DNA from: a virus
Taxonomy: Duplodnaviria; Heunggongvirae; Uroviricota; Caudoviricetes
IMG/VR virus record: IMGVR_UViG_2563366944_000005
Length of the DNA: 23,570 nucleotides
Reading direction: 5' to 3' (one strand)
Each line of letters begins with the position of its first letter. Position 1 is the first letter of the stretch. Positions 12,935-20,731 of the stretch are shown here, one piece after another. Position numbers and translations under genes: made by a program. The notes beneath the pieces are model-generated. The model ran no database searches. It had not been told where the DNA came from and saw nothing but the letters and a program-made list of their open reading frames with translations.

Positions 12935-13222
12935 TCAGAGAATGCGTTTGACCGCCTCGCTATATACTTCCGAGCGTTCTCTTTTCCCAACAGAAATCAC
13001 GAAAACGACAACTTTCTCGTCTATAACCTGGTATACAAGGCGATAGCCTGAAGACCGGAGCTTAATCTTGTAACAATCAGGCATACCACGGAGCTTGTTT
13101 GCTTCAATCCGGGGTGACTCAAGTACTTCAACCAGCTTCTTTTTCAACTGTTCACGTACCGTCGAGCCCAGCTTTCGCCATTCCTTTAGTGCCCGCTCGT
13201 CAAAATCCAGAAAATACGCCAT
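12935..13222 (-). CDS. relE: RelE mRNA interferase toxin (95 aa)
   Basis: Track ORF MAYFLDFDERALKEWRKLGSTVREQLKKKLVEVLESPRIEANKLRGMPDCYKIKLRSSGYRLVYQVIDEKVVVFVISVGKRERSEVY...; ATGA overlap with relB stop. Confidence 0.9.
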   Translation of the reverse strand: MAYFLDFDERALKEWRKLGSTVREQLKKKLVEVLESPRIEANKLRGMPDCYKIKLRSSGYRLVYQVIDEKVVVFVISVGKRERSEVYSEAVKRIL

Positions 13223-13461
13223 CAGAGTTCATCCAGCGTCACACGTACTGGCTTAGGATTACGAAGCCGTTCTTTCACTATCTCCACAAGTTCAGCATCT
13301 TCATCACTCAGGAGTGTCTGTTTGAACGGCAAGCGTTCATTGTCAGCGATATACTCGAGCATGAGACGAAGCGCTTCAGAAGGAGTTACACCCATTTTTT
13401 CAAGCGCGGCGTAAGAACGCGCTTTAAGTTCATCGTCAATACGCAGGTTAATGCTACCCAT
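13222..13461 (-). CDS. relB: RelB antitoxin (79 aa)
   Basis: Track ORF MGSINLRIDDELKARSYAALEKMGVTPSEALRLMLEYIADNERLPFKQTLLSDEDAELVEIVKERLRNPKPVRVTLDEL. Confidence 0.9.
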   Translation of the reverse strand: MGSINLRIDDELKARSYAALEKMGVTPSEALRLMLEYIADNERLPFKQTLLSDEDAELVEIVKERLRNPKPVRVTLDEL

Positions 13462-13993: not shown

Positions 13994-14326
13994 ATGTCTG
14001 TCACAATTCAGGGAAATACCTCAACCGTTATTTCAAACAACTCCGCCCCGGAAGGAACATCAGAAATAGCCAAAATCACAAGACAAATTCAGGTGCTGAC
14101 TGAAAAGCTTGGGAAAATCTCATCGGAAGAGGGGATGACGACACAGCAGAAAAAAGAAATGGCTGCATTGGTACAGAAGCAAATTGAAAGCCTCTGGGCT
14201 CAACTGGAGCAGTTGTTAAGGCAGCAGGCAGAGAAAAAGAATGAAGACGCGACAGTTCAGCCTGATAAAAAAGAAGAGAAAAAAGACGATACAAATACCG
14301 CTGGCACCATTGATATTTACGTCTAA
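13994..14326 (+). CDS. flxA: FlxA (110 aa)
   Basis: Track ORF; ATG with AAGGAGA SD; coiled-coil, Lys/Glu/Gln-rich. Confidence 0.85.
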   Translation: MSVTIQGNTSTVISNNSAPEGTSEIAKITRQIQVLTEKLGKISSEEGMTTQQKKEMAALVQKQIESLWAQLEQLLRQQAEKKNEDATVQPDKKEEKKDDTNTAGTIDIYV

Positions 14327-14674: not shown

Positions 14675-16130
14675 AACAAACCACCCGAAAATGAACACCA
14701 GAAACGCGACTTAAGAATCTACCCTATGAATGGATATGCACTCAACCGAATCGATCTTGGTTTCAATCTTTTTTATCGGGATCAGGCTTCTTTTTAGGTA
14801 ACTTCGGGGGCTTAACTTGCTGATGACTTTGCGTTCGGCGCGTAAGCCAGGGATGGTCAGCTTTAGGTTTAACATAGTATTTTGAGCGTAAATCAATACG
14901 GGCATTATCCACTCGTTCATGGACACTCTTTTCATCATCCAGTGGTATAGGCTCCGGGCCATCAACATACTTTTCCCAGCCCAGCGCTTTCCCGTCATAC
15001 AGAACGTTAATTTCACCGTCAAAGTTCTCGCATACAGTAACAACCGAATGCCTAAGTCGATATCCCCGGCCCTCACTGCGTACCTGAAACGCACTGCTTT
15101 TGTACTGGAAAGTGAGATTTTTAGACAGAACGCGCTTCGCCTGTAGGCTGAAGATATAACCCAGTTCCTCTTCAGAATGGTGCACATCAAGATGAGCATT
15201 ATCAGTAGTACGAGGCGACGTAGCGAACCGGTTGTTATAGGCTTCAATAAAGGTCGGCAACCATGCATTTGCTGTTTCAATATCACTGATATTCTGAAGC
15301 CGCATTTCTTTGACCAGCCTGTCCTGTAGTGTCTGATTGGCGCGCTCTACCCGCCCTTTTGCCTGCGGGCTGTTGGCATGGATTGGCTCGATGCCCAGTG
15401 TCTTTATCGCACGAGTGAACTGGGTCAGCTCACCTTCCCGCTCTGGGTTATTTACCCTGAATATACTGTGTCTATCAGAGTAGAGAGCGAGCGGTACGCC
15501 ATGATCATTAAGGTAACCCCGGAGGGTTTCCATGTAAGCCCGGGTTGTTTCAGCAGGCACAAAACGCAACGCCATCAACGCACTGGTGGCATCATCAATG
15601 AAAACGATCAGTGTACATCTGGGGCCTCGATTTTCAAACCAGTCATGAGGTGAGCCATCAATCTGGATCAGTTCACCGTAAGATGGTCGTCGCATGCGGC
15701 GTTGATATATACGGGCAATTTTACGACGGCGTTCACGCCATAACCCCTCTTCTATCATCCACTTTCTGAGAGTTTCAACGGATAAAGATAAACCGTGTAT
15801 CTCGCGCAATTTTTCGCACGCAAACGTAGGTCCAAAATCAGCGTAACGGCCTTTGAGGAGTGAAATTACTGTTGCTCTGAATTCAGTAGAAAAGGAATTA
15901 TTAGGACGCTTTCCACGTCGGTGGGAAACCAGAGCAGAAGGCCCTTCATTTCTATACCGTTGCACCAGACGTTTAACCTGCCGAATAGAAATGCCAATGC
16001 GTGCCGCAGCTTGTTCCTGAATAATCTGAAGTCGGTGGAGTTCCTTATGACTCATCGTAACAGTCTCTTTGATCATGAAAAATCCCCCAGAGAATTGTCT
16101 GGGGACATTTTAGAATGGTTCAAAGGGGAC
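14675..16130 (-). mobile_element. insertion-sequence-like element (about 1.45 kb) carrying the transposase; ends approximate
   Basis: Imperfect inverted repeats: 14679-14693 aaccacccgaaaatg versus 16106-16120 cattttagaatggtt (CATTTTnGnnTGGTT core, roughly 75% over about 20 bp). Confidence 0.45.
14763..16076 (-). CDS. DDE transposase with integrase (rve-type) catalytic core and N-terminal HTH (437 aa)
   Basis: Track ORF; ATG with GGGGG SD; candidate D/D/E residues in LIVFIDDATS, ALYSDRHSIF, GRVERANQTL; HTH IGISIRQVKRLVQRY; IS family not assigned. Confidence 0.85.
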   Translation of the reverse strand: MIKETVTMSHKELHRLQIIQEQAAARIGISIRQVKRLVQRYRNEGPSALVSHRRGKRPNNSFSTEFRATVISLLKGRYADFGPTFACEKLREIHGLSLSVETLRKWMIEEGLWRERRRKIARIYQRRMRRPSYGELIQIDGSPHDWFENRGPRCTLIVFIDDATSALMALRFVPAETTRAYMETLRGYLNDHGVPLALYSDRHSIFRVNNPEREGELTQFTRAIKTLGIEPIHANSPQAKGRVERANQTLQDRLVKEMRLQNISDIETANAWLPTFIEAYNNRFATSPRTTDNAHLDVHHSEEELGYIFSLQAKRVLSKNLTFQYKSSAFQVRSEGRGYRLRHSVVTVCENFDGEINVLYDGKALGWEKYVDGPEPIPLDDEKSVHERVDNARIDLRSKYYVKPKADHPWLTRRTQSHQQVKPPKLPKKKPDPDKKD

Positions 16131-16410
16131 ATTACAGCTTGGTGTTAACAATAGCCTGCTTCTCCGTGCCTTTCGGCACGTAAGAGGCTAACCTACATGT
16201 GTCTAGCATGAAATTGGCCTCAGATTAATGTTAAGCGTCTTGCAGGACGCGTAATGTTAACTGGGGCTTTTCTCTATCTGCCGTTGGTGTCCATGCCCGA
16301 GGCAGATAGCCTCAAGCACCCGCAGTCATTCTACTTAACTAAGATTTCCCCGCAAACCGTTTTTGTCCAGCACAGTAAATATCCAACTAAACCAATGGAG
16401 TTCGCTGTAT

Positions 16411-16590: not shown

Positions 16591-16844
16591 TATTCCTCCT
16601 ACAATCAATGTGCAATTACATTTAAACACACCTCAATTTGGCCGGACATATAAATATCTAAACCAGAAAAAATCACTTACATAGCGTTACAAACTCTTTA
16701 GTCTAAAGGTTCATCGTAAAACATTCCCCATACTTATCAGTCCGTTCCGCGCCAGGTAGCTCATTGCCTTATCTGGCAACCTGTAATCAGGTTTCCGCTT
16801 TTTCAGTTGGCTGGTCGTTTAACCGACATAGTTAATCCATTAAT

Positions 16845-17132
16845 CTAGTTGCCGGATGTTGGTGGATTTTCGCGTTTTAGTTGTTCATAAAAGTGCACAG
16901 CTTTAACCAGTTCTTCTGATGTAACGGGGACTGGTGAGGCAGTGAATAAGGCCTGAATTTGATAGTTCGGCCTGTCGTTACAATCCTCTTTTTTCGGTAC
17001 ATATTTCCAGTCACCAGACCACTACTTCCCCTGAAAGTCCGTAACGCCTTTTTTTACGTAGCGATATCGCCATGCCACTGGTTTTGCTTGCCCCGCCGTT
17101 TCATGCCCTTCCTGATAATTAATCTCGCTCAT
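16845..17132 (-). pseudogene. ORF interrupted by an in-frame amber codon (36 codons, TAG, 58 codons)
   Basis: Hand translation MSEINYQEGHETAGQAKPVAWRYRYVKKGVTDFQGK*WSGDWKYVPKKEDCNDRPNYQIQALFTASPVPVTSEELVKAVHFYEQLKRENPPTSGN*; TAG at about 17022-17024. Confidence 0.3.
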
Positions 17133-17742
17133 TCATCGCCCCACTCATCACAATATGCTTCGACCGGAGTTTTTCCCGCTTCATAGTCATCACGCTAGGA
17201 TTCGACATCAGCAGCACTTCCACCGCGTAACTCACCATAGTCCATTAATAGTTCATCCCGCTCTTCAAAACTGATGTTATATTTAGCTGAACAAAAATCA
17301 GCCACTTTGTGCTTCCTCATCGTCTTTTATTTCGTGGTATGAGTAATTGCAGTAGTTAAAGAAAATTTCTTATGCTCCGTCATGAATTTCCTCAGGTGTT
17401 GCGTCATCGTCCACTTCGAATACATCCTCAAAATCTCCACCAGCTATTCCCGTTTCAATAATAATTTTGAACTTTCGCATTTCACTACCGCCCTTTCGGG
17501 CGGCCTCCTGATGTTCTGAGGGTGCAGAAATCCATCCGGTTAAGGATTAAATTTTATTTACAGAACTGAATTTAATTATTCAGATATACGTATCTGTAGC
17601 CTTACGAATCTACTCACTGGATGCCTCTTTCATAAAAATAATCCAGTGGGTTTTATCGTTTTTTCCCTGTTCGTTGACAGATAACAGGTTTTCTGTCTGT
17701 CAGTGCCAGAATCTGGCTTACCGGTATTTGCGTTTCATTCCA

Positions 17743-18099
17743 TTAAAAAATCAGAACGCCGTGCGGCCTCAACACCCGAAAGGCTTCTTTAAATCTCTGT
17801 CGCGAATCATCACGCCAGGCATCTTTATTCAGCCGTCCATATTTCTTTCCCATCCAGGCGTTATCACCAACACTCTCAAGATGCGGAGGGTCTAATACAA
17901 CCATCGAAAAAGATGCGTCTGCAAATGATAATGCACGAAAATCTGCGATAATGTCAGGGCTGATAATCAAGCGTCTCCCATTGCGTAATGTGTATCCTTC
18001 TTTTCTGATATCGCTGAATATCGCCCGTTCGTCAGACTTATCGAACCAGAACATGCGGCTGCCACAGCACATATCAAGAATGGTTGCCGGTGCACTCAC
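17743..18099 (-). CDS. DNA methyltransferase-like N-terminal fragment (118 aa), probably truncated
   Basis: Track ORF with GTG start overlapping the upstream stop (GTGA); SAM-binding-like ILDMCCGS and DPPH motif; ends right after RVLRPHGVLIF with no continuation in any frame. Confidence 0.4.
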   Translation of the reverse strand: MSAPATILDMCCGSRMFWFDKSDERAIFSDIRKEGYTLRNGRRLIISPDIIADFRALSFADASFSMVVLDPPHLESVGDNAWMGKKYGRLNKDAWRDDSRQRFKEAFRVLRPHGVLIF

Positions 18100-18518
18100 T
18101 GCGCCACGTCCTGAAAATTACCCTGATAGAAAGCCAGTATGCGCTGCATAACTTCGCTCTTCCGGCACTCGCGACAGATTATGTTTAGGCGACTGTCGTA
18201 GCGACGTATTTCTCCGTCAGGTGATGACCAGATAAGGTCCGGATCAACCACAGCAGGTTTCTTCACCTTTGCCCTCGAGAGTTTTTTGCGGGCGTTTTGC
18301 CAGTCCTTACGCGCCTGTTCAGAGGGGAATAACCCGTAGCCGGAGTTGTATACATCGCCACTGGCTACCAGCTCTCTGGCAAGAACGCTCATCAGATATC
18401 TAGTCGCACCTGTTTTAGCTTCCAGTTGCCGTAACGTCTCACGGCCGCTCTGGCGCACGAGTTCCACCACCTGCCATTTAATTTTTTCCCGCTCTTCTTG
18501 TGTAAAAACTTTTGCCAC
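18096..18518 (-). CDS. hypothetical protein (140 aa), possible winged-helix DNA-binding protein
   Basis: Track ORF; GTG start preceded by AGGGGG; lies 40 nt downstream of the O-like gene. Confidence 0.55.
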   Translation of the reverse strand: MAKVFTQEEREKIKWQVVELVRQSGRETLRQLEAKTGATRYLMSVLARELVASGDVYNSGYGLFPSEQARKDWQNARKKLSRAKVKKPAVVDPDLIWSSPDGEIRRYDSRLNIICRECRKSEVMQRILAFYQGNFQDVAQ

Positions 18519-20323: not shown

Positions 20324-20731
20324 ATGGAAACAAAAAATTTAACTATCGGCGAACGCATCAGGTATCGTCGGAAAAACCTCAAACACACCCAAAGGTCTCT
20401 TGCTAAAGCCCTGAAAATCTCCCATGTGTCTGTATCACAATGGGAACGGGGTGATAGTGAACCTACAGGGAAGAACCTTTTTGCCCTCAGCAAAGTATTG
20501 CAATGCTCACCAACATGGATTCTATTTGGCGATGAAGACAAGCAACCAACACCACCTGTTGAGAAGCCAGTTGCCTTATCCCCCAAAGAACTAGAGCTCC
20601 TTGAGCTGTTTAATGCACTGCCAGAATCAGAACAGGATACCCAGCTCGCCGAAATGCGAGCTCGAGTAAAAAACTTCAATAAACTCTTTGAAGAATTACT
20701 AAAAGCCCGTCAGCGGACAAATAAAAGATAA
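20324..20731 (+). CDS. dicA: HTH repressor DicA (135 aa)
   Basis: Track ORF METKNLTIGERIRYRRKNLKHTQRSLAKALKISHVSVSQWERGDSEPTGKNLFALSKVLQCSPTWILFGDED...; ATG verified. Confidence 0.9.
   Translation: METKNLTIGERIRYRRKNLKHTQRSLAKALKISHVSVSQWERGDSEPTGKNLFALSKVLQCSPTWILFGDEDKQPTPPVEKPVALSPKELELLELFNALPESEQDTQLAEMRARVKNFNKLFEELLKARQRTNKR

What the first reader, a model, noticed from the sequence alone, without database searches (positions are those of the whole stretch)
17743..18099. DNA methyltransferase-like ORF that stops just after its DPPH motif
The 118-aa product has a SAM-binding-like ILDMCCGS motif and a DPPH catalytic-type motif but ends about 50 residues later, with no continuation in any frame. 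It is coupled to the upstream 140-aa ORF by a GTGA overlap. This is either a remnant of a phage methyltransferase or an unusually small variant.
Basis: partly seen in the sequence, partly recalled or inferred. Interest (0 to 1): 0.45.

Follow-up and report, generated by a model that had tools for sequence, protein, structure and literature searches.

The report
Dead phage methyltransferase gene remnant
The 118-residue "mini methyltransferase" is the front part of an ordinary ~160-residue phage methyltransferase gene, killed by a premature stop codon and a one-base insertion, so it is a common E. coli prophage pseudogene and not a new small enzyme.

Summary
The ORF at 17743..18099 (-) is real. 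So are its ILDMCCGS and DPPH motifs and the GTGA overlap with the upstream DUF977 gene. After the TAA the same frame reads WNETQIPVSQILALTDRKPVICQRTG, and a shifted frame then reads KNDKTHWIIFMKEASSE*. Both stretches are the conserved C-terminus of the family.

DNA alignment with intact homologues in the same slot (157 and 164 aa) shows two lesions: AAA to TAA at codon 119 (17745-17743) and one extra G in the run at 17665-17667. The surviving 118 residues also differ at 7 of 70 family-conserved positions, against 0-4 in 48 relatives.

A model of an intact relative puts the cut at the end of strand beta-5, so strands beta-6 and beta-7 of the fold are lost. The stop allele is in 475 of 5426 complete E. 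coli genomes, always once and on the chromosome. NCBI's annotation pipeline (PGAP) flags a 98.7%-identical copy as a pseudogene.

The parent family (phrog_954; over 6,600 homologues, mostly 155-170 aa) is a class I SAM-dependent methyltransferase with no solved structure among sequence-detectable relatives. Its "DNA" label was not tested here. Verdict: ordinary pseudogene in a Qin/mEp460-like lambdoid prophage; low interest.

The parts
17610..18099 (-). Full footprint of the ancestral methyltransferase gene. It is 162 codons plus a stop once the extra G is removed and the TAA is read as a sense codon. It is now a pseudogene.
   Evidence: PGAP annotates the corresponding stretch of strain C10 as a pseudogene, 'frameshifted; internal stop'.
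17743..18099 (-). The 118-aa ORF of the finding. It is the 5' part of the pseudogene and equals RefSeq WP_001310834.1.
   Evidence: phrog_954 match at E = 6.7e-58, covering profile positions 52-165 of 229.
18058..18081 (-). ILDMCCGS, a motif I-like (SAM-binding loop) segment following strand beta-1.
   Evidence: Read from the sequence. L8, D9, C11 and C12 are invariant in the family alignment. Strand 7-11 in the model.
17881..17892 (-). DPPH, a motif IV-like segment directly after strand beta-4.
   Evidence: Read from the sequence. D70, P71, P72 and H73 are invariant in 49 sequences. Strand 64-70 in the model.
17743..17745 (-). Premature TAA at codon 119. Intact homologues have AAA (Lys) or AAC (Asn) here, and a metagenomic copy of this lineage has GAA.
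   Evidence: DNA alignment. K119 is at least 90% conserved. P0006 carries GAA. The TAA allele is in 475 of 5426 genomes.
17668..17742 (-). In-frame continuation after the stop: WNETQIPVSQILALTDRKPVICQRT, which are family codons 120-144.
   Evidence: It corresponds to the near-invariant family block KWNETQIP...LT..KP..QRTGK.
17665..17667 (-). GGG run holding one extra G compared with intact homologues (ACA-GGAAA). This is a +1 frameshift that leads to ...GKKR*.
   Evidence: DNA alignment. The allele is in 468 genomes. One genome lacks the extra G but keeps the TAA.
17610..17664 (-). Out-of-frame remainder of the gene. Together with two G of the run it reads GKNDKTHWIIFMKEASSE and ends at the ancestral stop TAG (17610-17612).
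   Evidence: D148, K149, T150, H151, W152, F155 and K157 are near-invariant in the family.
18096..18518 (-). Upstream DUF977 (phrog_142, 'Ren-like') gene. Its TGA stop overlaps the methyltransferase GTG start as GTGA.
   Evidence: The same arrangement occurs with intact homologues.

Best explanation
The ORF is the 5' two-thirds of a pseudogene. Its ancestor was a small (about 160 aa) class I SAM-dependent methyltransferase. That family is carried as an accessory early gene by lambdoid and many other temperate phages (phrog_954).

In this Qin/mEp460-like prophage lineage the gene sits at the end of the rightward early operon: dicC/cro, a YdaT/cII-like gene, an O-like replication gene, DUF977, then the methyltransferase. 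Its start is translationally coupled to DUF977.

The gene was inactivated by an AAA to TAA change at codon 119 and by one extra G at codon 145. The remaining part also carries substitutions at family-invariant residues.

If the ORF is still translated through the coupled start (inferred, not shown), the 118-residue product ends at the end of strand beta-5. It lacks strands beta-6 and beta-7 and 26 conserved residues, so it cannot form the seven-stranded fold. It is expected to be inactive and unstable (inferred from the model).

The lesions are inherited vertically with the chromosomal prophage in about 9% of complete E. coli genomes.
For: Shown:
- Frame continuation after the stop, then in a shifted frame.
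- Base-level lesions against intact homologues that sit in the same slot after DUF977: 157 aa WP_001275735.1 and 164 aa WP_001275731.1.
- There are 6694 homologues. The 120 listed are mostly 155-170 aa, with a second group near 248 aa that carries C-terminal extensions. The best intact relative is only 88% identical.
- 26 columns conserved at 90% or more lie beyond residue 118. The ORF departs from the family at 7 of 70 conserved columns (H36Y, C39R, D40N, P58S, F69L, R76S, G102R), against 0-4 (median 1) in 48 relatives.
- In the AlphaFold model of intact P0004, beta-5 is residues 110-119, beta-6 is 138-143 and beta-7 is 150-156.
- PGAP flags the 98.7%-identical C10 copy as 'frameshifted; internal stop'.
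- Two genes just downstream are also pseudogenes in PGAP, and one was re-checked in the window.
- The TAA allele is in 475 genomes and the extra-G allele in 468, once per genome and always chromosomal. No genome shows this lineage's flanks with AAA.
Against: - PGAP annotates the 118-aa ORF as a normal protein (WP_001310834.1) in most genomes.
- The start codon, the coupling to DUF977 and the two motifs are intact, so a truncated polypeptide may still be made.
- Pairwise dN/dS against intact homologues (0.20) is not clearly higher than between intact homologues (0.13-0.37), so relaxed selection is not shown by that measure.
- The structural model is of moderate confidence: best model pLDDT 74, the other four about 50.
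Confidence: 0.9

Rival explanations
1. A working miniature variant: the 118-residue protein retains a function of its own, such as SAM binding, acting as a subunit, or regulation.
For: Motif I-like and DPPH segments, the start codon and the coupling to DUF977 are all intact. The allele is stable in 475 genomes. PGAP does not flag it in most genomes.
Against: - No 118-aa class appears among the 120 best of 6694 homologues. The only shorter entries are themselves frameshifted or partial: P0006 (133 aa) and P0020 (155 aa).
- The homologous C-terminus still lies downstream, so the truncation is a recent lesion and not a distinct architecture.
- Strands beta-6 and beta-7 are missing.
- Six residues invariant in all 48 relatives are mutated.
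- The allele's frequency is explained by vertical inheritance of one chromosomal prophage, seen once per genome.
Confidence: 0.05
2. Programmed recoding: read-through of the TAA plus a ribosomal frameshift at the G/A run restores a full-length enzyme at a low level.
For: The frameshift lies in a slippery-looking homopolymer stretch, GGGAAAAAA. The downstream coding remnant is still well preserved.
Against: - Two independent recoding events would be needed.
- Intact homologues encode the same protein as one plain ORF.
- One genome lacks the extra G but still has the TAA, and a metagenomic copy has GAA but keeps the frameshift, so the two lesions behave as separate mutations.
- Residues invariant across the family are mutated.
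Confidence: 0.02
3. A sequencing or assembly artefact created the stop and the frameshift.
For: The frameshift is in a homopolymer, and one genome differs there.
Against: Identical lesions occur in about 470 independently sequenced complete genomes and in a phage record.
Confidence: 0.01

Closest known systems
Intact prophage 'class I SAM-dependent methyltransferase' of E. coli (WP_001275735.1, 157 aa; WP_001275731.1, 164 aa; clusters P0001, P0002 and P0004, 161-162 aa); PHROG family phrog_954
   Same: - Same gene in the same slot after DUF977, with the same 4-nt start/stop overlap.
- 87-90% nucleotide identity.
- Same DMCCGS and DPPH motifs.
   Different: - The window copy has TAA at codon 119 and an extra G at codon 145.
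- It has 7 substitutions at conserved positions.
- Its annotated product is 118 aa instead of 157-164 aa.
The same pseudogene as annotated in RefSeq (E. coli C10 RG32_RS17860, 'frameshifted; internal stop') and the 118-aa protein WP_001310834.1 (E. coli W, ATCC 8739 and others)
   Same: Same locus and same two lesions. WP_001310834.1 is annotated at the matching position of E. coli W, whose 651-base stretch is 100% identical to the window.
   Different: The C10 allele still has R76 and L98 where the window has S76 and S98. The window allele is therefore one step further decayed.
Amino-group methyltransferases with a (D/N/S)PP(Y/F/W/H) motif IV: DNA m6A/m4C enzymes (Pfam N6_N4_Mtase; M.TaqI, CcrM, M.BceJIV) and RNA m2G enzymes such as Trm11
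   Same: - A DPPH tetrapeptide directly after strand beta-4. Motif I precedes motif IV, which I recall as the gamma-type motif order (own knowledge).
- Weak structural similarity to Trm11 (Foldseek E = 6e-4), and weaker still to M.BceJIV, CcrM and M.TaqI.
   Different: - The intact family is only about 160 aa, with no recognisable target-recognition domain.
- Pfam N6_N4_Mtase is below its threshold.
- Generic small-molecule class I methyltransferases score as well or better in the fold searches.
- The substrate is untested.

Membership tests
phrog_954 (phage 'DNA methyltransferase', about 160-aa class I SAM methyltransferase) | Significant match to the family HMM | tested here: met
phrog_954 (phage 'DNA methyltransferase', about 160-aa class I SAM methyltransferase) | Complete domain, including the conserved C-terminal block KWNETQIP...QRTGK.DKTHW..F.K | tested here: not met
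26 columns conserved at 90% or more are missing from the product.
Pseudogene of that family | Premature stop and/or frameshift relative to intact orthologues, with homologous sequence continuing downstream | tested here: met
   AAA to TAA at 17745-17743 and +1 G at 17665-17667. Continuation shown. PGAP pseudogene flag in strain C10.
Class I (Rossmann-like) SAM-dependent methyltransferase fold | Seven-stranded beta-sheet with motif I after beta-1 and the catalytic motif after beta-4 | tested here: not met
Pfam Methyltransf_11 / Methyltransf_25 | Score at or above the gathering threshold | tested here: inconclusive
   Methyltransf_11 scores 21.6 bits against a cut-off of 21.2, with no single stretch passing on its own. 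Methyltransf_25 scores 18.1 against 27. All 49 members of the alignment match both families at E <= 0.1; best E-values 6.8e-06 and 1.1e-05.
Pfam N6_N4_Mtase (PF01555) DNA methylase | Score at or above the gathering threshold (26.7 bits) | tested here: not met
   No hit for the 118-aa ORF. None of the 49 family members matched it.
DNA amino-methyltransferase (m6A/m4C) in general | A (D/N/S)PP(Y/F/W/H) catalytic motif plus a SAM-binding motif | tested here: met
   DPPH is invariant, and the DxCCGS motif is invariant or nearly so. These motifs are shared with RNA and protein amino-methyltransferases, so they do not identify the substrate (own knowledge).
DNA amino-methyltransferase (m6A/m4C) in general | A target-recognition domain and demonstrated DNA methylation | not testable with these tools
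   No room for a target-recognition domain in about 160 aa. No solved structure among sequence-detectable relatives, and the literature searches found no relevant paper.

The most novel reading that the evidence does not exclude
The window copy is dead, but the parent family may be interesting. It is a very widespread family of about 160-aa methyltransferases with a DPPH motif and no target-recognition domain. It has over 6,600 homologues and is found in phages of both Gram-negative and Gram-positive hosts. No sequence-detectable relative has a solved structure, and I found no characterised member.

The gene has been inactivated independently at least three times in E. coli prophages:
- TAA at codon 119 plus an extra G in this lineage.
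- TGG to TAG at the invariant Trp (W95 in P0004 numbering; codon 94 of the O157:H7 gene).
- A frameshift in the A-run in cluster P0020.

Recurrent loss could mean its activity is costly in a lysogen. One possibility is that it provokes methylation-dependent restriction such as Mrr or McrBC. Another is that it modifies something other than DNA.
Probability: 0.12. Interest if true: 0.4.

Novelty: already known. Interest (0 to 1): 0.1.

Why it matters
It matters mainly for annotation. RefSeq carries this fragment as an ordinary protein (WP_001310834.1) in hundreds of E. coli genomes, yet flags a 98.7%-identical copy as a pseudogene. Treating it as a small methyltransferase would be a mistake in methylome or defence/anti-defence surveys.

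A secondary point concerns the intact parent family, which is abundant in temperate phages and uncharacterised as far as the literature and structure searches showed. Its repeated decay in E. coli prophages is a modest lead for anyone studying phage-encoded methyltransferases.

Tried and rejected
- dN/dS (Nei-Gojobori) between the window and intact homologues gave 0.20, against 0.13-0.37 among the others. This is uninformative about relaxed selection, because most of the divergence predates inactivation or comes from mosaic exchange.
- Searches of solved structures with an intact homologue and with the family profile gave no significant hit; the best was E = 0.036 to a generic methyltransferase.
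- NCBIfam gave only noise-level hits.
- Five literature searches found no paper on this gene or family. The terms were DUF977 + methyltransferase + prophage; Qin prophage + methyltransferase; phage + methyltransferase + DPPH (swamped by the DPPH antioxidant assay); class I SAM-dependent methyltransferase + prophage + pseudogene; and orphan methyltransferase + lambdoid.
- The promoter and terminator scan around the gene was at or near chance for promoters. It added nothing beyond a hairpin-plus-T-run that overlaps the TAA, which is simply the T-run of ...ATTTTTTAA.
- The idea of a deletion was rejected. The alignment shows no missing bases, only one extra base and substitutions.

Full report
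**1. Observation**

The window holds a 118-codon ORF at 17743..18099 on the minus strand, starting with GTG.
- ILDMCCGS is residues 7-14 (18058..18081).
- DPPH is residues 70-73 (17881..17892).
- The ORF ends 45 residues after DPPH.
- Its GTG overlaps the TGA of the upstream 140-aa ORF (18096..18518, Pfam DUF977, phrog_142) as GTGA.

The ORF is not a chance ORF: it matches phrog_954 ("DNA methyltransferase") at E = 6.7e-58.

**2. The part of the observation that fails**

Translating through the stop shows otherwise.
- The same frame reads ...GVLIF*WNETQIPVSQILALTDRKPVICQRTGKKR*.
- A frame offset by one base then reads ...GKNDKTHWIIFMKEASSE*.
- Joining these pieces into a 162-aa "repaired" protein raises the phrog_954 score from 196.6 to 268.6 bits and extends the match from profile position 165 to 205.
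- tblastn aligns residues 1-146 of the repaired protein in one piece across the stop codon in the near-identical phage record (H84).

**3. Locating the lesions**

Intact homologues sit in exactly the same slot, after a DUF977 gene with the same 4-nt overlap.
- E. coli 2014C-3599 has a 157-aa gene, WP_001275735.1, with 90% nucleotide identity.
- E. coli O104:H4 has a 164-aa gene, WP_001275731.1.

The DNA alignment shows no deletion. The differences are:
- (i) A substitution turning AAA (AAC in O104:H4) into TAA at codon 119, at window 17745-17743.
- (ii) One extra G in the run at 17665-17667. Intact genes read ACA-GGAAA and the window reads ACAGGGAAA. This shifts the frame into ...GKKR*.
- (iii) Missense changes. 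R76S and L98S are specific to the window allele. The 98.7%-identical allele of strain C10 has both lethal lesions but still has R76 and L98.

PGAP annotates the C10 copy as a pseudogene, "frameshifted; internal stop". The ancestral gene footprint is 17610..18099.

**4. Evidence that the fragment is not a working small variant**

- A search of about 5.8 billion protein clusters found 6694 homologues at E <= 1e-5. The 120 best are mostly 155-170 aa. A second group near 248 aa carries C-terminal extensions. No 118-aa class appears.
- In a 49-sequence alignment, 26 columns conserved at 90% or more lie beyond residue 118: KWNETQIPV..LT..KP.I.QRTGK.DKTHW..F.K.
- Within the surviving 118 residues, the window departs from the family at 7 of 70 such columns: H36Y, C39R, D40N, P58S, F69L, R76S and G102R. 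Six of these positions are invariant in all 48 other sequences. The others depart at 0-4 columns, median 1.
- An AlphaFold model of intact P0004 has a best-model pLDDT of 74 and pTM of 0.76, so it is of moderate quality. It gives strand beta-5 at 110-119, a helix at 127-131, beta-6 at 138-143 and beta-7 at 150-156. The stop therefore removes two strands of the class I sheet.
- Pairwise dN/dS was uninformative.

**5. Population and context**

- A 41-nt probe centred on the TAA matches 475 of 5426 complete E. coli genomes, once each and always on the chromosome.
- The same probe with AAA never matches over all 41 bases.
- The extra-G allele is in 468 genomes.
- One genome (VE-V11-M) lacks the extra G but keeps the TAA and the identical 118-aa protein.
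- A metagenomic copy (P0006) has GAA at codon 119 but keeps the frameshift. The two lesions are therefore separable mutations, and their order is unresolved.

In E. coli W the neighbours are dicA, dicC, dicB, ydfA-D, relBE, hokD and flxA. This is the Qin-type lambdoid prophage, and two genes just downstream are PGAP pseudogenes. One of them (17298..17480) was confirmed here to contain a stop.

The whole window is 99.1% identical to Escherichia phage PhiR42_1. Phages of the mEp460 group (HannyBb, Tritos, mEp460) match roughly 40-50% of the window, but none of them appears among the matches to the methyltransferase stretch. The gene is therefore an accessory. In a P22-like prophage an intact copy sits in the leftward early operon next to ead/Ea22 genes, so it behaves as a mobile early-gene module.

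**6. What the intact family is**

- Pfam gives only weak Methyltransf_11/25 matches.
- N6_N4_Mtase is below its threshold.
- NCBIfam gives nothing.
- No sequence-detectable relative has a solved structure.

A DPPH tetrapeptide right after strand beta-4 is the hallmark of methyl transfer to an exocyclic amino group. This holds for DNA m6A/m4C, RNA m2G and protein glutamine methyltransferases alike (established knowledge). At about 160 aa there is no room for a target-recognition domain. My best guess is that the intact enzyme methylates an amino group on a nucleic acid early in infection. The "DNA" label is only an annotation, and I found no experimental paper.

**7. Mechanism for the window copy**

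What is shown is that the gene is disrupted.

What is inferred is the following. Transcription from the early rightward promoter and coupled initiation at the GTGA may still yield a 118-residue polypeptide. That product cannot complete the fold and is expected to be inactive and degraded.

The rivals are a functional mini-variant, recoding, and a sequencing artefact. They are unlikely for the reasons given under each.

**8. Related observation**

The family has been hit independently in other E. coli prophages.
- The O157:H7 copy has TGG to TAG at the invariant Trp (W95 in P0004 numbering).
- Cluster P0020 (82 member sequences) carries a different frameshift in the A-run.

This recurrent loss is the only mildly interesting lead.

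**9. Verdict**

This is an ordinary pseudogene that is already annotated, inconsistently, in RefSeq. The "remnant" alternative is supported and the "small variant" alternative is rejected. Interest is low.

Noticed in passing
window 17298..17480 (-) and 16711..17132 (-): The two genes just downstream of the methyltransferase remnant are also decayed. One is a DUF7167-family gene with an internal stop. The other is a hypothetical gene with a frameshift and a stop, according to PGAP in E. coli W and C10. The whole stretch between the replication module and the IS element is a run of pseudogenes.
   Followed up: partly
window 14763..16076 (-): A 437-aa transposase ORF with HTH and integrase-core (rve) domains; PGAP calls it ISNCY family. 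It is complete in this window. The corresponding gene is annotated as truncated in E. coli W and is split into two ORFs in phage PhiR42_1.
   Followed up: partly
window 16150..16321 (-): Rfam sok antitoxin match (104 bits against a gathering score of 59) next to the transposase gene (14763..16076), with no intact hok-like ORF beside it. This may be a second hok/sok locus cut by the IS insertion. The intact hokD is at 12708..12863.
   Followed up: partly
window 21773..21824 (+): DicF small RNA (Rfam 76.7 bits), upstream of the dicB ORF. Together with dicA (20324..20731) this confirms the Qin-type immunity and division-inhibition region.
   Followed up: no
window 8912..9304 (-) and 6017..6402 (-): Two full-length matches to the cspA thermoregulator leader (158.8 and 112.8 bits), which would be leaders of cold-shock-protein paralogues carried in the late region of the prophage.
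   Followed up: no
window 12935..13461 (-): A relBE toxin-antitoxin pair (RelE 12935..13222, RelB 13222..13461), with flxA at 13994..14326 (+). These are cargo genes typical of Qin.
   Followed up: no
L005 (E. coli O157:H7 Rafaela_II) 1566..2039 (-); protein cluster P0020: Independent inactivations of the same methyltransferase family in other prophages. The O157:H7 copy has TGG to TAG at the invariant Trp (W95 in P0004 numbering). A separate frameshift in the A-run gives ...GKTIKPTGLFL in cluster P0020 (82 member sequences).
   Followed up: partly
L007 (E. coli L65) 3890..4375 (-): An intact 161-aa family member lies in the leftward early operon of a P22-like prophage (kil, cIII, a Rad52/Rad22-family gene, ssb, an anti-RecBCD gene, then the methyltransferase and ead/Ea22), not after DUF977. 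The gene moves between early operons as a module.
   Followed up: no
proteins P0009, P0005 and other ~248-279 aa clusters: Many Enterobacterales homologues are about 248 aa (P0005 is 279 aa). They carry C-terminal extensions beyond the ...THWIIF.K end of the methyltransferase; I did not check what the extensions resemble. They could be fusions with the downstream gene or a true two-domain form.
   Followed up: no
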